From assembly GCA_041390685.1 (NCBI GenBank), contig JAWKPL010000001.1, positions 73,784-137,783 on the forward strand: a stretch of 64,000 bases of DNA, written 5' to 3'. Positions 5,163-15,568 of this stretch are shown here, one piece after another (the first letter of the stretch is position 1; every line of letters begins with the position of its first letter). The stretch is from Dehalococcoidia bacterium. Lineage in GTDB: Bacteria; Chloroflexota; Dehalococcoidia; UBA2979. The notes beneath the pieces were generated by a model. The model searched no databases and was not told the DNA's origin. It saw only the letters and a program-made list of their open reading frames with translations. The position numbers and the translations under genes were made by a program.

Positions 5163-5489
5163 GTGGAACGCAAGCAACGCTTCATCGCGATCGCCATCCC
5201 CGTGCTCGCCCTCGCCGGCCTCGGCCTCGGCGTCGCCGCCGCCCGAGGTGGTGACGGCGATGAGCCCCTCACCGGCGCCACACTCGAACGCGCGTCCGCC
5301 GCCGCCCTCGCCTACACCGGCGGCGGCCAGGTCGTCGAAGCGGAAACCGGCGACGACGGCGCCGCCTACGACGTCGAAGTCCGCCGCCCCGATGGTGCCA
5401 CGGTCGAGGTGCGCCTCGATTCCGCCTTCGCCGTCATCGGCCACGAGGCTGACGACGACAGCACGGACGACGAGTCCAGCGACGACTGA
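5163..5489 (+). CDS. PepSY-domain secreted protein
   Basis: Signal peptide followed by a PepSY-like 'YDVEVRRPDGATVEVRLDSAF'. GTG start with a 'ggaaggag' ribosome-binding site. Confidence 0.7.
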   Translation: MERKQRFIAIAIPVLALAGLGLGVAAARGGDGDEPLTGATLERASAAALAYTGGGQVVEAETGDDGAAYDVEVRRPDGATVEVRLDSAFAVIGHEADDDSTDDESSDD

Positions 5490-5517
5490 TCCCGCCCACG
5501 GAGACGAGGAGAGACAG

Positions 5518-6270
5518 ATGCCCCGACTTCGATTCGCGCCCATCGCCGCCGCCGTGGCGCTGCCTCTGCTGCTGCTCGCGGCCGCATGCGGCAACCATGA
5601 CCCGTCCGAGGACGCGCTCCCCCCGCTCCCGTCCCCGACTCCCGCCGGCCTCGATCCCGCCACCTTCGTCGCCACCGTCGACAACCCGTACTGGCCCATG
5701 ACCCCGGGCTCGCGCTGGGTCTACCGCGAGACCGACGCCGACGGCGCCGAACAGCGCGTCGAGGTGACCGTCACCGAGGACACCCGCTTCATCCTCGGCA
5801 TCACCGCCACCGTCGTCCACGACATCGTCCTCGCCGAGGACGGTGCCGTCATCGAGGACACCTACGACTGGTACGCGCAGGACCGCGACGGCAACGTCTG
5901 GTACCTCGGCGAGGACACGAAGGAATACGAAGACGGCAAGGTCGTGAGCACCGAGGGCTCATGGGAGGCCGGCGTCGACGGCGCCATTCCCGGCATCGTC
6001 ATGTTCGCCACACCTCGCCTCGACGACGTCTACCGCCAGGAGTACTACGCCGGGCACGCCGAGGACGCCGCGAAAGTCCTCAGCCTGACCGCCCGCGCCG
6101 CCGTCCCCTACGGCTCCTTCGACGCCGTCCTCCAGACCTGGGACTTCACGCCGCTCGACCTCGAGGCCCACGAGCACAAGCACTACGCCCGAGGCGTCGG
6201 ACTCGTCCTCGTCACCGACCCCGACGGCACCGTCCGCGAGGAACTCCTCACCTACACTCCCGCCCCGTAA
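5518..6270 (+). CDS. lipoprotein of unknown function
   Basis: Lipobox 'LLLLAAACGN'. Ribosome-binding site GGAG. No recognised catalytic motif. Confidence 0.7.
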   Translation: MPRLRFAPIAAAVALPLLLLAAACGNHDPSEDALPPLPSPTPAGLDPATFVATVDNPYWPMTPGSRWVYRETDADGAEQRVEVTVTEDTRFILGITATVVHDIVLAEDGAVIEDTYDWYAQDRDGNVWYLGEDTKEYEDGKVVSTEGSWEAGVDGAIPGIVMFATPRLDDVYRQEYYAGHAEDAAKVLSLTARAAVPYGSFDAVLQTWDFTPLDLEAHEHKHYARGVGLVLVTDPDGTVREELLTYTPAP

Positions 6271-6340: not shown

Positions 6341-7249
6341 ATGCACCAGCGCCTCCGCCCGGCCACGCTCGCACTGATCGCTCTCGTCGTCGTCCTCGTG
6401 TCCGCCTGCGGGGGAGGCGACGACAGCCCCACGCCCACCGCGACCTCGACACCGCTCGTCGCCACGACGGCCACCCTCACCCCCACCGCTACGAGGACCG
6501 CGACCGCCACGCCGACCCCCACCCCCTCGCCTACGCCAACCCCGACCCCATCCGCCACCCCCGCCGGCCCCACCCCCTCCCCGCCCGCTGAGAGAGCGCG
6601 GGTCCTCTGGATGCTCCGCGACCACGGCGGCACCAACGTCGCCGTCGTCCGCTTCGCCACCAACGTCGACACCGTCGCCACCCTCACCGTCTTCGGCAGC
6701 CCCGGCGAGCCCACCGGCGTCGAGCCCCAGACCGACTCCACCTTCGCGAAAGAGCACACCATCGCCACGCCGCTCGCGCTCGGCACGCCCGTCGCGATCA
6801 GCATCACCGTCACCGACCGCAACGGCTACAAAGCCGGCGCCGTCCTCGAATACGGCAACGTCATCGTCGGCATGCAGTACTTCGGCCGCGCCCCCGGCTT
6901 CACCCCCGAATTCACCTGGACCGCCCCCTACGAGGGCACCGCCACCTGGGACGCCATCAGCACCTCCACCCCGCTCCCCCTCGGCCGCGTCCAGGTCTTC
7001 GGCAAGCGCGCCGGCTGCACCACCGCCGAGCAATGCCAGGCCACCCTCCAGGCCACCGCCACCGAGGACACCCGCACCCTCCACGAGGGCTACGAGTCAC
7101 ACTCCGTCCCCGTCACCCTCCCCACCACACCCGCCCAGGACTTCCAGCTCCTCTACACCGTCATCATCGACAACGGCCTCCAGCCCGTCAGCATCTTCTA
7201 CCAGCGCGACCTCCTCGCCGCCGAAGCCGCCGCCGGCTCCTACAACTAA
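6341..7249 (+). CDS. lipoprotein with Thr/Pro-rich linker, unknown function
   Basis: Lipobox 'LVSACGGG', then a (TPTPS) low-complexity linker and a globular C-terminal domain. Confidence 0.65.
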   Translation: MHQRLRPATLALIALVVVLVSACGGGDDSPTPTATSTPLVATTATLTPTATRTATATPTPTPSPTPTPTPSATPAGPTPSPPAERARVLWMLRDHGGTNVAVVRFATNVDTVATLTVFGSPGEPTGVEPQTDSTFAKEHTIATPLALGTPVAISITVTDRNGYKAGAVLEYGNVIVGMQYFGRAPGFTPEFTWTAPYEGTATWDAISTSTPLPLGRVQVFGKRAGCTTAEQCQATLQATATEDTRTLHEGYESHSVPVTLPTTPAQDFQLLYTVIIDNGLQPVSIFYQRDLLAAEAAAGSYN

Positions 7250-7455: not shown

Positions 7456-8100
7456 TCAGCGCAGACTGAACGGCGGATACCGGTCCGTCAGCATCAGGAA
7501 CGCATACGCCTGCACCCGCAGCCCCCACCGCCCCACACCCACCACATAGTCGAACAGCCCCCGCGGATACCGGCCCGTGAACAGAATTGCGAACCACGCC
7601 GCGATCACCGCCAGCACCGCCCCGAGGATCAAGAAGAACAGCACGATGTAATGCGGGATCGCCAGCAACCACTTCACGAGGGGCAACCACCGGTTCAGCG
7701 CACGCGCGTCCGGATAGTCCAGCTCCACGTGCACCGCCTGCTCATCCTCCGTCGACGGATACTCATCCCGCAGCAGCGCGAGGTACGCCCCCACCCTCGA
7801 GGAGAACCGAGTCAGCCCGAGCAGAAAGTCGAACCACCACCGCGGATACCGCTGCCGGAACAGGATCATCAGCGCCAGCGCGAACCCGATCCCGCCCACG
7901 ATCGTCCCGCCCGAGTCCCGCGCCGACGCCCCACCGTCCCCGATGCTCACCGCCCCGCCCCCGCCGCTGCTCACCAGCGCCAGGATCACAAAGATCGGCA
8001 CCACCCACAGCAACCGAAACGCCGAGGACACCCGGTCCAGCCGCTCCGGATACTCCACCTCCAGCCGCGCCGCATACGAGGTCACCTGCTCGTTCATCAC
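7456..8100 (-). CDS. DUF4389-domain membrane protein
   Basis: 'AIPHYIVLFFL' and 'FTGRYPRGLFDYVVGVGRWGLRVQAYAFLMLTDRYPPF' are characteristic of DUF4389. Confidence 0.8.
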   Translation of the reverse strand: MMNEQVTSYAARLEVEYPERLDRVSSAFRLLWVVPIFVILALVSSGGGGAVSIGDGGASARDSGGTIVGGIGFALALMILFRQRYPRWWFDFLLGLTRFSSRVGAYLALLRDEYPSTEDEQAVHVELDYPDARALNRWLPLVKWLLAIPHYIVLFFLILGAVLAVIAAWFAILFTGRYPRGLFDYVVGVGRWGLRVQAYAFLMLTDRYPPFSLR

Positions 8101-8201
8101 TCCACCTCACTCACCCACCAACCGAGGCCAACCGGCCCCCGCGTGCAGCGCACTTTACGCCTCGACCTACCCGCGATGTCCGAGCGCTCCGGTGGACCGA
8201 C

Positions 8202-10772
8202 CTATCCATCGACGCGAATCGCGGGCCTCAGCCGAGAGAATATCTCGGCGAAGAGAGGTAATTGAATATCCGCCGCGACTTCGAGGGAGATGGCCATTCC
8301 GTATGGCACACCCGTATCGTCACCTGCATCCGCGGTGTCGCGCCGGTTCACCCTGAAACGCAAGACGCCACCCTCGACAAACGCGGATGCACGCTCGCCT
8401 TCGAACACTTCGTGCTGCACCGTGCCTCGGCGTGCCATGTTCATTTCGACCTCAGAACGCTTGACGTCGATCTGGTGCTCGGAACCATCAGCAGCCTCGA
8501 ACCACAATGCGGCCTGGCGGTAACTACGATGATTCAACGTTGTCGGACTGAGCCACGCCAACGTCAATGTGAGTCGTCGTCGCAGTCGGACACCCGCCAG
8601 GCTTGGAGGCAATGGTACTTCGTAGAGCTCGGCTTCATCTCGTGCCAATTTCCCCCATCCGACCAAGGTCACGCGCTGATCGGTGCCTCCCAGTGCCCGC
8701 TCTTCCTCGATCGCGCCGAACCCGAGCAGTCGCGTAAGCTCTCTCCTCCTCCGAACGGGAGGGACATCGCTGAGCGCTCTTTCAATCACGGTCGCGGCAT
8801 CTCCCCAACACGCCGCGTGCACCACGAGGCATTTCGTCAGCACAGTTCGAAACTCGTCGGGGATCTGCGTCGTCTCTTCCAGCAGCTCATATACACGTGC
8901 AGCAAGGTGTGAAATCGTTGCCGCCGCGTTACTTGTTCCGTGAACAAACGTCGTTGCTGCTAAGTCCCCAGGCGGCCCAACTGCTGCGACTTGCACCCCC
9001 GGGGCTCGTCCCGATGGGAGACTCTGGAGGACCTCGTTGCCGTCGGTACCCATGGGCAAACCGAATCGATACGATATTCTCCCGCCCCGCGCAAGGACAT
9101 CTGGCTTTACGCTTCGCCCGTAGCCCAGTCCAAGTGCGTTAATAGGACTGGGCAAAATCTCACTTGTATAGACTGCGAGTGCCCGTGGATGCATAGCCCC
9201 AGAGCCGTCTCCGTTTACGGCGGCAACCGTCAGTCCATTCACTGACTCCGCTGGCGAAAGAAGCCGCCTAAGACGTGCGTCAGACCATAGTGCTCGCAGA
9301 ATCAAGTGTGTCTTTGCATCCGCTTCCAGTTCGTCGAAAGTGCTACGTGACATGAATAGGGGAACCTGTGCATCGTGATTGCCGGCGCTCACCACGAATA
9401 GGACGTTGTACTTCCAGGAAAGCCAGTCCAATAGCCTGGCCATCGGGCTGATAATCGAATCGAACGGGCGCCAAGAGTCGCCGATCGAGAAATTGACGAT
9501 CCTCACAGTCGGAGCCGCGGGTATCACCGACCCCCCCGTAACTTCGAACATCTCTCGCACAGCACGATGGATCAAATCGACGCTCAGCACATCGTCGGGG
9601 AGCCTTTCAGCTCGTTCTATATGCCGGGAGTCGGGCCGCATGACCGGTCGAACATAGACTAAGTTCCCGAGTGTGGTCCTTGGACTTGATAGGTCCCCAT
9701 GCACAAGAATCGACGCCATCGCAGTTCCGTGCCGCTGCTCAGCCGCTTCATATACAGAAGCCATGTCGTCCGCGTCATTTAGTAGTAACCGTCCCGCCAA
9801 CAGCGCGTGGTTCGTCAGCGGCAACCCGTCCAACAAGGCGAGACGGGGCAGACCGAGCGTCTCCGAAGGCGATTCCGATTGCGCGGTCGTACGTAGCTCA
9901 TCCACCGGATTGACCGGCGCGGTGAATTGTGCGGCCGGGCGAATGAACATGATCGACCCCGCCCGAACAACTTCAACTTCCCGCCCCTGCACGAGGCCTG
10001 CAGCAACGCCGGCCGGAATGTTAACCAACATCGCGTGGTAGCCGATCTCCGGAATGAGAGCGGTTGCTTGTACCGATCCTCCGCTCGCAGCGACCAGCCC
10101 ACGAATACTCTCTTCGGCGTGTAGCCTCGACTCTGCTGTGCCGCGGAACCATAGTTCGATCTCTGCAGGGACCGTCTCATCGCCCACCTGAAGGCGATCC
10201 GCCCGGTCCTCCGCAAGACCCGTGTCGAGGACGCGGTCCCGGTAACCCCAAAGACGGATGTCGCGAAGCTGATCGAAAAGATCCCGCCAGGGGGTTTGAC
10301 CGCGTGGCCAGCCCTCGTCGGCTCCCCCCTTGATTCGAAGGTAGAGCTCCCAGAGTCGTCGGAGCTCGGCGATCGCCTCCTGGTCGGCCAGCACCAAATA
10401 GACTCTGGCCGGGATCCCTGGCTCGGTCGAGCCATCGCTCCCACGGAAGTCGGCATCCTCGTCAACGCGGAATTCATCGGATTCGACCAGCCATTCCCAC
10501 CCAGGCATTCGGCGGACGGCACGAACGAATTCGTCGACTGAACCAGCCACCTCAAACACGATCACTTCCTCGGGTGCTGCGTCCATCGCACTCCGCTGGA
10601 ATGTTCGGCTTCGCTGGCGAAATTGCTCCTCGAGTTCGAGGATACGGGGCGTAACGCGTTCCTGCTGCCGCTGCCATCCCGGACTTGATGGACGGGCACC
10701 GCCGCCACCCCGCCTCACGGAACGTGGCTCCTGCCTAACCGGTCTCAGAAAAATGAACGGTCGGTCGGGCAT
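8202..10772 (-). CDS. S8 (subtilisin-like) serine peptidase, 856 aa, ietS-like
   Basis: Catalytic signatures: 'ALLDGLP' (Asp), 'HGTAMASILVHGD' (His), 'VVSAGNHD' (oxyanion Asn) and 'GTSNAAATISHLAARV' (Ser). It starts about 10 nt after the upstream ATPase stop. GC is lower than the flanks. Confidence 0.85.
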   Translation of the reverse strand: MPDRPFIFLRPVRQEPRSVRRGGGGARPSSPGWQRQQERVTPRILELEEQFRQRSRTFQRSAMDAAPEEVIVFEVAGSVDEFVRAVRRMPGWEWLVESDEFRVDEDADFRGSDGSTEPGIPARVYLVLADQEAIAELRRLWELYLRIKGGADEGWPRGQTPWRDLFDQLRDIRLWGYRDRVLDTGLAEDRADRLQVGDETVPAEIELWFRGTAESRLHAEESIRGLVAASGGSVQATALIPEIGYHAMLVNIPAGVAAGLVQGREVEVVRAGSIMFIRPAAQFTAPVNPVDELRTTAQSESPSETLGLPRLALLDGLPLTNHALLAGRLLLNDADDMASVYEAAEQRHGTAMASILVHGDLSSPRTTLGNLVYVRPVMRPDSRHIERAERLPDDVLSVDLIHRAVREMFEVTGGSVIPAAPTVRIVNFSIGDSWRPFDSIISPMARLLDWLSWKYNVLFVVSAGNHDAQVPLFMSRSTFDELEADAKTHLILRALWSDARLRRLLSPAESVNGLTVAAVNGDGSGAMHPRALAVYTSEILPSPINALGLGYGRSVKPDVLARGGRISYRFGLPMGTDGNEVLQSLPSGRAPGVQVAAVGPPGDLAATTFVHGTSNAAATISHLAARVYELLEETTQIPDEFRTVLTKCLVVHAACWGDAATVIERALSDVPPVRRRRELTRLLGFGAIEEERALGGTDQRVTLVGWGKLARDEAELYEVPLPPSLAGVRLRRRLTLTLAWLSPTTLNHRSYRQAALWFEAADGSEHQIDVKRSEVEMNMARRGTVQHEVFEGERASAFVEGGVLRFRVNRRDTADAGDDTGVPYGMAISLEVAADIQLPLFAEIFSRLRPAIRVDG

Positions 10773-10782
10773 TGCTCGCTCG

Positions 10783-11760
10783 CTACGAAGTCGTTCCAGT
10801 GACCTTGCGTCGGCTATTCCATTGTCGCAGGCGGCTCTTCAGGATCTCGTCGGGCTTGGCCTCTCCTTGCTGCAAGACCATACGGCGCTGTACGTCAAGC
10901 ACGAAGTCGGTTAGCTCAGCGAAACTTGAACCCGCGAGAGATCGACTGATGGAATCGTAAGAGCGCCGCGACTCCCCTACCGCCGAACCAAGGCGCGCGC
11001 GCAGAAATGCCTCACGCTGGATTGGCCCCGGAGCCGGAAGCTCCAGCCGAACCTCAAACCGCCGCCACACGGCGCGATCGAGCAACTCAGGATGATTGGT
11101 TGCTGTCACCACCACAACGTGGCTCGGGAGCGAGTCAATCTGCAGCAGCAAGGAGCTCACGACACGCTTCACCTCCCCGGTATCGTGTGGGTCACCACGC
11201 TCCTTGGCAATCGCGTCGAATTCGTCAAAGAAGAGAACGCACTGCCGAGTCCTAACAAAGTCGAACAGTTGGCTGATCCGATAGGCCGTTTCGCCCAGAT
11301 AACTCCCAATAATGCGATCGTATCGCACGGACATGAGAGGAACAGCGAGCTCGAATGCCAACGCCTCGGCGAGAGAGGTTTTCCCGTTTCCTGGAGGCCC
11401 TACCAGCATGATCCGGTGACGCGGTTCGAGGTTGAAGGACTGCAACAACGTGCGCCTCTGCTGCTCCTCTATCAGTTCACCAACGATCTCCAACAGTGGC
11501 GCGGCGAGATAGAGGTCAGTCAGGCTTCGGGCGGGTAAAGTAGCGTGCACATATGCGTCCGCTGCTGCATCCCCTAAGGTGCTCAGGAGTACGCCTTCCT
11601 TCTCCGGGCGCCGTATCCGCTGCTCTAGCTGATCGGCGAGAACATCGTGACGTCGCCCGCGCTCCTCGGCGATGAGCGCCTCGGCAGCACGACGGAACAT
11701 CACTCGGTCGCCGGCAGACCCGGACTCCACGAGCTTCAGCAGCAAGTCACCTCTAGCCAT
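10783..11760 (-). CDS. AAA+ ATPase (classic AAA clade), ietA-like
   Basis: Walker A 'GPPGNGKTS', Walker B 'VLFFDEFD', sensor-1 'TATN' and an Arg finger 'RRF'. It is directly upstream of the S8 peptidase on the same strand. Confidence 0.85.
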
Positions 11761-11784
11761 TTCGTCAATCTACACGTATCGGGC

Positions 11785-11838
11785 CACACCCACACCCACC
11801 CCACGCCTCCCCCATCCTCCCTACCCCCAACTCCCCCT
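11785..11838. repeat. C-tract/G-tract low-complexity region (G4/i-motif-prone)
   Basis: The plus strand reads 'ccacacccacacccaccccacgcctcccccatcctccctacccccaactccccc' with almost no G. The complement contains at least six G3-5 runs. Confidence 0.7.
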
Positions 11839-11920
11839 ATACTTGACCTCACGCCCGGCGACGCCACCCCGACCGCCCGAGGCCACACCCACCCTCCTGC
11901 ACACACTCGGAGCCACAGCC

Positions 11921-14349: not shown

Positions 14350-14823
14350 ATGTTCATGCAGCGGATGGCGCTGGTCGCGCTGGTCGGCATCGCCATGGCC
14401 CTCGTGGCCTGCGGCGGTGACTCCGAGGACTCGGACACCGACCCCGTAGGCGCGGCCGGCGCAAGCCAGGGCGAGTCCGGCGCCACGTCGCCGGCTGGCC
14501 CCTCCACCGGCCAGGCTGCCCCCTCCTCCGCCGGACGAGGCTCCGGCACCGTCTCCCTCAACGGCACGGAATACGACTTCGTCGTCCGCTCGTGCGCCGT
14601 CGTCAACGGCAAGCCCAACCTCGGCGGCGACGGCGCCATCAACGTCGCCCTCGGTGCCGGCTTCCTCGTCCAGCTCCCCGGCGGTGCCTCCTACACCGTC
14701 CGCCAACCTGTCACCGCCGTGCAGGGCAAGACCGTCACCGCCTCGGGCACCGGCAGCAACCTCGCCGCCGCCAACGACCTCGTGCCCGTAACCCTCGAGG
14801 CCACCTGCTCCGACCTCAACTGA
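14350..14823 (+). CDS. small lipoprotein, unknown function (paralog A)
   Basis: Lipobox 'LVACGG', a Gly/Ser-rich linker, and a C-terminal domain with a conserved Cys pair. Confidence 0.65.
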   Translation: MFMQRMALVALVGIAMALVACGGDSEDSDTDPVGAAGASQGESGATSPAGPSTGQAAPSSAGRGSGTVSLNGTEYDFVVRSCAVVNGKPNLGGDGAINVALGAGFLVQLPGGASYTVRQPVTAVQGKTVTASGTGSNLAAANDLVPVTLEATCSDLN

Positions 14824-15055: not shown

Positions 15056-15568
15056 TTGGACAGCCAGCCTCCCCGGCGCCGCCTCATCACCCTCGCACTC
15101 CTCGGCGCGACCCTCATGGCCTGCGCCGGCAACTCCGGCGCCTCAACGGGCGCCCCGACGCCGTTCTTCACCCCACGAGGCGCAACGACGGCGACTCCGA
15201 CGCCGTCCGAAGCAACGGCGGCTGCACCCACTTCCTCCGACGCCCCCGCTCCGTCGACCGCCCGCGGCTCCACCACCCGTGACGGCGGCACGCTCGTCCT
15301 TGCGGGAAACAGCTACGCGTTCACCGTCCGCACCTGCGACACGATCAACGGCGAGTACCACCTCGTCGGCGACGGCGACGCGAGCGTGGCGCTGGCGTCC
15401 GTGCTCATCGTGCAGACGGACGGGCGCGGCTCCTTCATCGTCGACGAACCAGACGCCTCCTCTGCCGGTACGACCCTGACCGTCTCCGGCCCCGCCCGCA
15501 ATCTCGTCCTCCCCGGCGACCGCGTCCCGCTCACCCTCACAGCCACCTGCCCCGGTCTGGCAAACTGA
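15056..15568 (+). CDS. small lipoprotein, unknown function (paralog B)
   Basis: Lipobox 'LMACAG'. The C-terminal domain aligns with 14350..14823: 'G.SY.F.VR.C...NG...L.GDG...VAL...L.V...G' and 'L.V.G....L...D.VP.TL.ATC..L'. Confidence 0.65.
   Translation: MDSQPPRRRLITLALLGATLMACAGNSGASTGAPTPFFTPRGATTATPTPSEATAAAPTSSDAPAPSTARGSTTRDGGTLVLAGNSYAFTVRTCDTINGEYHLVGDGDASVALASVLIVQTDGRGSFIVDEPDASSAGTTLTVSGPARNLVLPGDRVPLTLTATCPGLAN

What the first reader, a model, noticed from the sequence alone, without database searches (positions are those of the whole stretch)
8101..11920. Low-GC two-gene island: AAA+ ATPase plus large S8 serine protease (ietAS-like)
A ~3.7 kb block sits between a DUF4389 gene and metE. 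Its GC is visibly lower (about 47-60% in sampled 60-nt stretches) than the ~70% flanks.

The block carries only two co-directional genes separated by ~10 nt:
- a 325-aa classical AAA ATPase (GPPGNGKT / FFDEFD / TATN)
- an 856-aa S8 peptidase with the complete D/H/N/S catalytic set

This ATPase plus subtilase pairing matches the ietA/ietS module reported as anti-phage but mechanistically uncharacterised. How an ATPase would license or activate a subtilase is unknown, and it is a promising proteolytic-effector system.

No integrase or tRNA flanks the island.
Basis: partly seen in the sequence, partly recalled or inferred. Interest (0 to 1): 0.8.

Follow-up and report, generated by a model that had tools for sequence, protein, structure and literature searches.

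The report
Horizontally acquired ietAS ATPase–protease defence pair
A foreign-looking two-gene cassette in a Dehalococcoidia genome is a clear member of the known ietAS family, an AAA+ ATPase "antitoxin" plus a subtilisin-like protease "toxin" used for phage defence and plasmid addiction; it is a correct call but an ordinary new example of a family whose mechanism is still unsolved.

Summary
Two co-directional minus-strand genes, 10 nt apart, lie between a DUF4389 gene and metE: a 325-aa AAA+ ATPase (10783-11760) and an 856-aa S8 peptidase (8202-10772).

- **Composition:** GC is 0.60 against about 0.70 in the flanks. GC3 is 0.63/0.67 against 0.83±0.055 for 49 other predicted genes (z = -3.7/-3.0).
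- **Family:** both proteins match PADLOC IetA/IetS models end to end (445 and 924 bits), and all ATPase and protease catalytic residues are intact.
- **Pairing:** in about 95 related loci the ATPase always sits directly upstream of the protease, and the two proteins co-diverge (r = 0.93).
- **Context:** relatives sit on plasmids and viral contigs, and some are nested inside BREX or type I R-M operons.
- **Divergence:** the founding pTiC58 pair is only a distant relative. It shares the AAA core, S8 domain and C-terminal domain, but not the ~300-aa N-terminal domain. NCBIfam's E. coli-type equivalog cut-offs are not met.

The pair is therefore a member of a distinct but already modelled ietAS clade. 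By homology to four tested relatives, IetS is the toxic effector and IetA restrains it; how is unknown.

Novelty: new member of a known kind. Interest is low to moderate.

The parts
10783..11760 (-). ietA: a 325-aa classical-clade AAA+ ATPase, the predicted antitoxin/regulator. Motifs: Walker A G121-T128 (K127), Walker B D179-E180, pore loop 1 S153-Y154-L155-G156, sensor-1 N222, Arg fingers R233/R234.
11611..11760 (-). IetA N-terminal three-helix bundle (aa 1-50), followed by a disordered linker (aa 52-62). It is conserved (consensus MARSDLLLxLVxAG..GD) and is a candidate partner- or substrate-recognition module.
   Evidence: AF2 secondary structure and pLDDT. Conservation. No Pfam hit even at E<=10.
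8202..10772 (-). ietS: an 856-aa cytoplasmic subtilase (S8), the predicted toxin/effector. The end coordinate includes the stop codon at 8202-8204.
9873..10772 (-). IetS N-terminal region (aa 1-300). It comprises a conserved Pro-rich extreme N-terminus (MPDRP.., two short strands at aa 7-16), a long helix (aa 33-60) and an alpha/beta domain (aa 69-300). It is clade-specific and has no known family or solved relative.
8688..9860 (-). IetS subtilase catalytic domain (about aa 305-695) with D315 (LDGLP), H348 (HGTAMAS), oxyanion N465 (SAGN) and S614 (GTSNA).
8205..8687 (-). IetS C-terminal beta-domain (about aa 696-856) with the conserved motif R781-R-G-T-V-Q-H-E788. The domain is shared with pTiC58 IetS (NRGSLHGDIWEG).
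10773..10782 (-). 10-nt ietA-ietS spacer. The tight spacing implies co-transcription or translational coupling.
   Evidence: Sequence. The same -19 to +26 nt spacing is seen in about 90 related loci.
11761..11920 (.). Divergent ietA/metE intergenic region. Only about 40 nt next to ietA share the island's lower GC, and the rest is host-like and C-rich. No consensus promoter was found.
   Evidence: Sequence. 100-nt GC profile. Promoter scan found nothing. No Rfam family.
8101..8201 (.). Host-like (GC 0.70) spacer between the DUF4389 start and the ietS stop. It marks the right-hand limit of the acquired block, which therefore consists of essentially just the two genes.
   Evidence: No terminator consensus here.

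Best explanation
The block is a horizontally acquired, intact two-gene ietAS module: a toxin-antitoxin-type abortive-infection system.

**Components.**
- IetS is a cytoplasmic subtilisin-like serine protease and the toxic effector.
- IetA is a classical-clade, substrate-threading AAA+ ATPase encoded immediately upstream and co-expressed with it.

**Proposed working cycle.**
1. In an uninfected cell, IetA hexamers spend ATP to keep IetS inactive.
2. A phage protein, or a phage-induced perturbation, blocks or diverts IetA.
3. IetS is freed and cleaves essential cell (or phage) proteins.
4. Growth stops and the infection aborts. The same logic makes the cassette addictive once acquired.

**Status of each step.**
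- Shown here: family identity, gene architecture, intact active sites, foreign composition, strict A-S coupling, and association of the clade with defence loci and mobile elements.
- Inferred from experiments on distant relatives: the toxin and antitoxin roles and the abortive-infection outcome.
- Speculative: that IetA acts by engaging the strongly conserved, Pro-rich N-terminus or N-domain of IetS through its three-helix N-bundle and central pore.
For: **Family identity.** PADLOC IetA and IetS match at full length, with 445 and 924 bits. Pfam finds AAA and S8.

**Intact machinery.**
- IetS: D315, H348, N465 and S614 are invariant.
- IetA: Walker A and B, the aromatic-hydrophobic-Gly pore loop, sensor-1 and the Arg fingers are all conserved.
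- IetA folds like the threading unfoldases FtsH, ATAD1, Vps4 and p97.

**Obligate pairing.** IetA lies directly upstream in every related locus that has at least 1 kb of upstream sequence. Pairwise identities of the two proteins correlate at r = 0.93 over 4005 pairs.

**Foreign origin.** GC3 z-scores are -3.7 and -3.0, and the GC drop coincides with the gene ends. The nearest homologues are only 52% (IetS) and 61% (IetA) identical. In 65 related loci the pair's GC is on average 3.6 points below its flanks.

**Defence and mobile context of the clade.**
- It is nested in BREX (brxC-pglX-ietA-ietS-brxHI-pglZ-brxA) and in type I R-M operons (hsdM-hsdS-ietA-ietS-..-hsdR).
- Full-length relatives occur on 60 plasmids and the clade on 23 IMG/VR contigs.
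- Large serine recombinases are adjacent in 9 loci.

**Function of relatives.**
- The protease is the toxin and the ATPase the antitoxin in pTiC58, SGI1 and Mycoplasma.
- Protease activity is required for defence, and ietA mutants could not be constructed (PMC13069673).
- A B. cereus ietAS acts by abortive infection and is triggered by a phage protein (bioRxiv 10.1101/2022.08.27.505566).
Against: - No experiment exists for this clade or this organism.
- The experimentally studied relatives are distant. pTiC58 IetS is 21% identical, with no detectable N-domain homology. The E. coli-type NCBIfam cut-offs are missed by a wide margin.
- In this genome the pair is solitary among housekeeping genes (metE, PPK2, a DtxR-like repressor, an ABC transporter, glutamate synthase). 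It is not in a defence island.
- No promoter was recognised, so expression is unproven.
- An empty-site comparison could not be made.
- How IetA restrains IetS is not known for any family member.
Confidence: 0.75

Rival explanations
1. The pair is a purely selfish addiction module. It persists in this chromosome because losing or silencing ietA would release the toxic protease, and it gives no benefit against phages in this host.
For: - The founding system was discovered as a plasmid-stability and incompatibility toxin-antitoxin pair, and SGI1 sgiAT stabilises a genomic island.
- The Mycoplasma antitoxin gene cannot be deleted alone.
- Here the pair is solitary among housekeeping genes, with no other defence genes nearby.
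Against: - The clade is repeatedly embedded inside BREX and type I R-M operons.
- Relatives from E. coli and B. cereus protect against phages.
- The two roles are not mutually exclusive.
Confidence: 0.15
2. The pair is a two-component ATP-dependent protease for regulated or quality-control proteolysis. In this view IetA unfolds substrates and hands them to IetS, as in ClpXP or FtsH-type systems.
For: - IetA has an intact pore loop and resembles FtsH, Yme1 and the proteasomal ATPases.
- The genes are tightly coupled and co-evolve.
Against: - The composition is foreign, the distribution is patchy and cross-phylum, and the clade sits on plasmids and in defence operons.
- In tested relatives the protease alone is toxic and the ATPase neutralises it, which is antagonism rather than cooperation.
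- Subtilases are not chambered proteases. This rests on established knowledge and was not tested here.
Confidence: 0.06
3. The pair is an inactive relic of a past transfer and is no longer expressed or functional.
For: No recognisable sigma-70-type promoter or terminator. The location is isolated.
Against: - Both ORFs are full length relative to homologues, with no frameshifts.
- Every catalytic and nearly every family-invariant residue is retained.
- The consensus promoter scan is not designed for Chloroflexota.
Confidence: 0.04

Closest known systems
PADLOC ietAS, the subtype modelled by PDLC04232 (IetA) and PDLC04233 (IetS)
   Same: Both proteins match end to end at 445 and 924 bits. Lengths match the model lengths (325 vs 330; 856 vs 855), and the genes are adjacent and co-directional in A-then-S order.
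   Different: Nothing detectable at the sequence level. To my knowledge this subtype has not itself been tested experimentally.
IetA/IetS of Agrobacterium pTiC58 (Yamamoto et al. 2009, J Bacteriol 191:4656), the founding toxin-antitoxin pair
   Same: - Same gene order and similar sizes (328/836 aa at NC_003065 97873-101373).
- The AAA core is 42% identical (E 2e-42).
- The S8 domain plus C-terminal domain are homologous (hhalign 98.5%), including the C-terminal RG[ST]...EG motif.
   Different: - IetS is only 21% identical, and the N-terminal ~300 aa do not align.
- The pTiC58 pair scores best on other PADLOC models, PDLC02196 and PDLC02198.
- It is plasmid-borne, whereas this pair is chromosomal.
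E. coli-type IteA/IteS (ietAS of Gao et al. 2020; NCBIfam NF042959 and NF042956)
   Same: AAA+ ATPase plus S8 peptidase with anti-phage activity. There are partial HMM matches: IetA residues 71-308 and IetS residues 415-655.
   Different: Scores of 222 and 74 bits fall far below the equivalog cut-offs of 510 and 900, and only the catalytic cores match.
SGI1 SgiAT and Mycoplasma TA132/133 (AAA-ATPase/subtilase toxin-antitoxin pairs)
   Same: Same two-gene logic. The protease is toxic and the upstream ATPase neutralises it.
   Different: These are different clades, closer to pTiC58 (SgiA is 50% and SgiT 36% identical to the pTiC58 IetA and IetS proteins). They were not compared directly with the window proteins.
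ietHAS (Liu-DS4, NAR 2026, PMC13069673)
   Same: An IetA plus IetS core, with protease activity required for defence.
   Different: ietHAS has an essential SNF2 helicase gene upstream. The window pair has no third gene, because metE is divergent immediately upstream of ietA.
PrrC anticodon nuclease inside the EcoprrI type I R-M locus. This is an analogy in layout only, drawn from established knowledge and not from a tool result.
   Same: Relatives of the window pair sit between hsdM/hsdS and hsdR (L125, L143), just as prrC does. That is the layout of a latent suicide effector guarding a restriction system.
   Different: The effector chemistry is unrelated. The window's own copy has no adjacent R-M or BREX genes.

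Membership tests
ietAS defence/toxin-antitoxin system | An AAA+ ATPase matching an IetA profile | tested here: met
   PADLOC PDLC04232 at 3.4e-134 covers residues 1-320 of 325. Three further IetA models also match.
ietAS defence/toxin-antitoxin system | An S8 peptidase matching an IetS profile | tested here: met
   PADLOC PDLC04233 at 2e-278 covers residues 1-854 of 856. Seven further IetS models also match.
ietAS defence/toxin-antitoxin system | The two genes are adjacent and co-directional, with the ATPase upstream of the protease | tested here: met
   There is a 10-nt spacer and both genes are on the minus strand. The same layout is seen in all related loci with enough upstream sequence.
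ietAS defence/toxin-antitoxin system | Intact ATPase motifs and an intact Asp/His/Ser catalytic triad | tested here: met
   K127, D179, E180, N222, R233 and R234 in IetA, and D315, H348, N465 and S614 in IetS, are all present and invariant across homologues.
ietAS defence/toxin-antitoxin system | Homology to the founding pTiC58 IetA and IetS over their whole length | tested here: inconclusive
   IetA aligns over its AAA core only (42% identity over 178 aa). IetS aligns over the S8 and C-terminal domains (98.5% hhalign probability), but the N-terminal ~300 aa do not align.
ietAS defence/toxin-antitoxin system | Protease toxicity that is neutralised by the ATPase | not testable with these tools
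   Known only for distant relatives.
ietAS defence/toxin-antitoxin system | Protection against phage infection | not testable with these tools
   Known for E. coli and B. cereus homologues. For this clade there is only the indirect support of nesting in BREX and R-M operons.
NCBIfam IteA/IteS equivalogs (E. coli type) | Score at or above the curated equivalog cut-off | tested here: not met
   IteA scores 221.7 bits against a cut-off of 510. IteS scores 74 bits against a cut-off of 900.
Classical-clade AAA+ protein unfoldases | A Pfam AAA (PF00004) domain with a pore-loop-1 aromatic-hydrophobic-Gly motif and second-region-of-homology arginines | tested here: met
Peptidase family S8 (subtilases) | The subtilase fold with a D-H-S triad in that order and an oxyanion-hole Asn | tested here: met
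CBASS-associated Trip13/HORMA regulator (considered because of weak PADLOC TRIP13 hits) | A Trip13-type ATPase next to HORMA and CD-NTase genes | tested here: not met
   TRIP13 models score only 48 bits, against 445 bits for IetA. The neighbours are an S8 protease, DUF4389 and metE.
ietHAS three-gene variant | An SNF2 helicase gene (ietH) upstream of ietA in the same operon | tested here: not met
   Upstream of ietA there is a 160-nt spacer and then the divergent metE gene.

The most novel reading that the evidence does not exclude
**Guard hypothesis.** This ietAS clade is defined by a unique ~300-aa IetS N-terminal domain. It may act as a PrrC-like second-line guard of methyltransferase-based immunity. 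Its repeated nesting between pglX and brxHI/pglZ, or between hsdM/hsdS and hsdR, would mean that the protease is held latent until phage anti-restriction proteins disable BREX or type I R-M. Solitary copies such as the one in this window would be escaped, free-standing versions.

**Possible control mechanism.** IetA may restrain IetS by engaging its conserved Pro-rich N-terminus through a Vps4/MIT-like three-helix bundle and threading it through the pore. That would be a new way of controlling a protease with an unfoldase.
Probability: 0.12. Interest if true: 0.6.

Novelty: new member of a known kind. Interest (0 to 1): 0.3.

Why it matters
ietAS is one of the defence families whose mechanism is still open. 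It is not known how an AAA+ unfoldase keeps a subtilase silent, or what the protease cuts. This instance adds little on its own: it is an intact, minimal two-gene copy in an uncultured Dehalococcoidia genome, already recognisable with existing HMMs.

The comparative work around it gives some useful handles:
- The clade has a conserved, family-specific N-terminal domain and a conserved extreme N-terminus on the protease.
- The ATPase has a Vps4-like layout: a three-helix bundle, a disordered linker and then the AAA core.
- Relatives are often embedded in BREX and type I R-M operons.

These points suggest concrete experiments, namely N-terminal deletions and triggering by anti-restriction proteins. 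They do not change the picture of the family.

Tried and rejected
1. **Empty-site or synteny test.**
   - A genome-contig scan with the DUF4389 protein returned 80 loci. The best was 73% identical, and none had metE, IetA or IetS beside DUF4389.
   - No close relative was available, so insertion rests on composition alone.
   - The exact-sequence look-up of the source contig also failed.
2. **Insertion scars.** No flanking direct or inverted repeats of note were found. The 9-15-nt matches (D11, CCGAGGCCA) are at chance level. There is no nearby tRNA and no integrase.
3. **Regulatory signals.** No sigma-70-like promoter, no terminator by ietS, and no Rfam family near the block were found.
5. 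**Accessory-domain families.** Pfam at E<=10 on IetA 1-75, IetS 1-300 and IetS 696-856 gave nothing credible.
6. **Other architectures for the IetS N-domain.** In the 150 best of 1126 representative hits it is N-terminal, mostly in IetS-length proteins; the shorter hits are probably contig-truncated.
7. **Phage-encoded copies.** Only four partial S8 hits were found in the GenBank phage collection, although 23 IMG/VR contigs carry the pair.
8. **Trip13/CBASS reading.** Rejected, because the hits are weak and no partner genes are present.
9. **Primary papers.** Yamamoto 2009 and Gao 2020 are not held in the library. Their findings are cited through papers that describe them.
Full report
**1. Observation**

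The window holds two co-directional minus-strand ORFs.
- The first is 10783-11760 (325 aa) and the second is 8202-10772 (856 aa). They are separated by 10 nt.
- They lie between a DUF4389 gene (7456-8100, minus strand; Pfam PF14333) and metE (starts 11921, plus strand).

The composition of the block is clearly different from its surroundings.
- Sliding-window GC falls from 0.68-0.74 in the flanks to 0.56-0.63 across 8250-11750.
- At 100-nt resolution the drop starts at about 8200 and ends at about 11800, which matches the ends of the two genes.
- The block is the lowest-GC 3.56-kb stretch in the 64 kb.
- The codon-level signal is stronger. GC3 is 0.628 for IetS and 0.669 for IetA.
- The 49 other predicted genes have mean GC3 0.832, sd 0.055 and minimum 0.725, so z = -3.7 and -3.0.

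There are no signs of a classical integration event.
- The only tRNA is 39 kb away.
- There is no integrase nearby and no convincing flanking repeat.
- The surrounding genes are housekeeping: PPK2, a DtxR-like repressor, an ABC transporter and glutamate synthase.

**2. Identity**

Family searches give a clear answer.
- Pfam finds AAA (7.6e-32) and Peptidase_S8 (1.9e-12, aa 342-654).
- PADLOC's IetA model PDLC04232 matches residues 1-320 (3.4e-134).
- PADLOC's IetS model PDLC04233 matches residues 1-854 (2e-278). Several other IetA and IetS models also match.
- NCBIfam's equivalog models for the E. coli-type IteA and IteS match only the catalytic cores. The scores of 222 and 74 bits are far below the cut-offs of 510 and 900.

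I located the founding pair on pTiC58 at NC_003065 97873-101373 and compared it directly.
- IetA is 42% identical over the AAA core.
- IetS is 21% identical over 608 aa.
- A profile comparison gives 98.5% probability of homology, but only over the S8 and C-terminal domains.
- The N-terminal ~300 aa do not align.
- The pTiC58 proteins prefer other PADLOC models.

The window pair therefore belongs to a distinct ietAS clade that PADLOC already models.

**3. Source and relatives**

- Proteins 100% identical to both products come from a 2.6-Mb contig of a Dehalococcoidia MAG.
- The next-best homologues are only 52% (IetS) and 61% (IetA) identical.
- More than 1700 IetS relatives were found, from many phyla.
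- The deposited annotations start 62 aa (IetS) and 5 aa (IetA) too late. The omitted residues are conserved, and the HMMs align from residue 1.

**4. Anatomy**

*IetS.* The AlphaFold model is confident (pLDDT 90.7, pTM 0.93). It has four parts.
- A conserved Pro-rich N-terminus forms two short strands and is followed by a long helix.
- An alpha/beta N-domain runs to about residue 300.
- The subtilase core carries invariant D315, H348, N465 and S614.
- A C-terminal beta-domain carries the conserved motif RRGTVQHE.

Structure and family searches on IetS show the following.
- There is no PDB sequence match and no Pfam signal for the accessory regions.
- The N-domain occurs in 1126 representative clusters. 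In the 150 listed it lies at the N-terminus, mostly in IetS-length proteins.

*IetA.* The model has pLDDT 87.3.
- It has a three-helix N-terminal bundle, a disordered linker and a classical AAA core.
- The core carries Walker A and B, a Y/F-L-G pore loop, sensor-1 and Arg fingers.
- It resembles the threading unfoldases FtsH, ATAD1, Yme1, spastin, Vps4 and p97.

**5. Comparative genomics**

I examined 80 metagenomic and 23 IMG/VR loci of the clade, plus others.
- IetA is directly upstream of IetS, on the same strand and within -19 to +26 nt, in every locus with at least 1 kb of upstream sequence.
- Pairwise identities of the two proteins correlate at r = 0.93.
- The pair's GC is on average 3.6 points below its flanks.
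- Full-length relatives lie on 60 plasmids, mainly rhizobial and actinobacterial.

Clustering the flanking ORFs and scanning them with Pfam and PADLOC gave an unexpected result. The pair is often nested inside other defence operons.
- In L096 the order is brxC-pglX-ietA-ietS-brxHI-pglZ-brxA.
- In L125 the order is hsdM-hsdS-ietA-ietS-PDC-S23-hsdR.
- In L143 the order is hsdM-ietA-ietS-hsdS-hsdR.
- About 14 loci have the BREX arrangement and about 8 have the type I R-M arrangement.
- A large serine recombinase is adjacent in about 9 loci.

This supports a defence role for the clade. The window's own copy is solitary.

**6. Mechanism**

Experiments on relatives agree with one another.
- The protease is toxic and the ATPase neutralises it in pTiC58 IetAS, SGI1 SgiAT and Mycoplasma TA132/133.
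- Protease activity is needed for defence, and ietA mutants cannot be constructed.
- A B. cereus system acts by abortive infection and is triggered by a phage protein.
- As of April 2026 the anti-phage mechanism is stated to be unknown.

My best-supported model is that IetA uses ATP to keep IetS latent, and that infection interferes with IetA. IetS then cleaves essential proteins and the infection aborts.
- Engagement of the IetS N-terminus by IetA's N-bundle and pore is speculation. It is consistent with the conservation pattern but untested.

The rivals are less likely for the reasons given in their entries. They are a pure addiction module, a cooperative ATP-dependent protease and an inactive relic.

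**7. Verdict**

- The feature is an intact, horizontally acquired member of an already modelled ietAS clade, so it is a new member of a known kind.
- It is of low to moderate interest in itself.
- The family's unsolved mechanism and the nested-operon observation are the parts worth following up.

Noticed in passing
L096 73-14236; L125 2038-12795; L143 2379-13250 (also L095, L104, L107, L109, L110, L113, L118, L123, L124, L134, L135 and L115, L120, L130, L138, L146, L150): Relatives of the window pair are nested, on the same strand and with touching gene ends, inside BREX operons (brxC-pglX-ietA-ietS-brxHI-pglZ-brxA) and type I R-M operons (hsdM-hsdS-ietA-ietS-..-hsdR). The layout recalls prrC in the EcoprrI locus. 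I found no description of this nesting in the paper library, beyond a report that ietAS co-localises with type III R-M in E. coli.
   Followed up: partly
window 10587-10772 and 11746-11760: The deposited annotations of the source MAG start IetS at M63 (794 aa) and IetA 5 residues late (320 aa). The omitted N-termini are conserved across homologues and are covered by the PADLOC models from position 1, so the longer ORFs are the real genes.
   Followed up: yes
L120, L140, L167, L169, L171, L176, L177, L178, L181 (for example L171 8701-10377): A large serine recombinase (Resolvase, Recombinase and Zn_ribbon_recom domains) lies next to the ietAS pair in about 9 loci, several of them on IMG/VR viral contigs. 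This suggests that some copies are carried by integrative elements or prophages.
   Followed up: partly
L125 8567-9571: A 334-aa gene between ietS and hsdR matches the PADLOC candidate defence family PDC-S23 (1.6e-161). This makes a third embedded module in the same type I R-M operon.
   Followed up: no
window 11761-11920: The metE leader is strikingly C-rich on the plus strand and contains an exact 12-nt repeat, GGCCACACCCAC, at 11782 and 11881. No riboswitch or other Rfam family reaches the gathering threshold upstream of metE.
   Followed up: partly
window 14350-14823 and 15056-15568: Two adjacent small ORFs (157 and 170 aa) have lipoprotein-like N-termini and similar C-terminal ends (..VTLEATCSDLN and ..LTLTATCPGLAN). 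They look like tandem paralogues and have no Pfam match. The ORFs at 5248-6270 and 6341-7249 are likewise unassigned, with Thr/Pro-rich linkers.
   Followed up: no
window 8205-8687; L188 38863-41373: The IetS C-terminal beta-domain motif R-G-[ST]-x-x-x-[ED]-x-[FW]-E-G (RRGTVQHEVFEG here, NRGSLHGDIWEG in pTiC58) is conserved between otherwise very divergent IetS clades. It may be a functional hallmark of the family.
   Followed up: partly
window 1-22000: GC skew is negative in every 500-nt window (about -0.01 to -0.40), so C exceeds G on the plus strand throughout, whatever the gene orientation. The skew is weakest inside the ietAS block.
   Followed up: no
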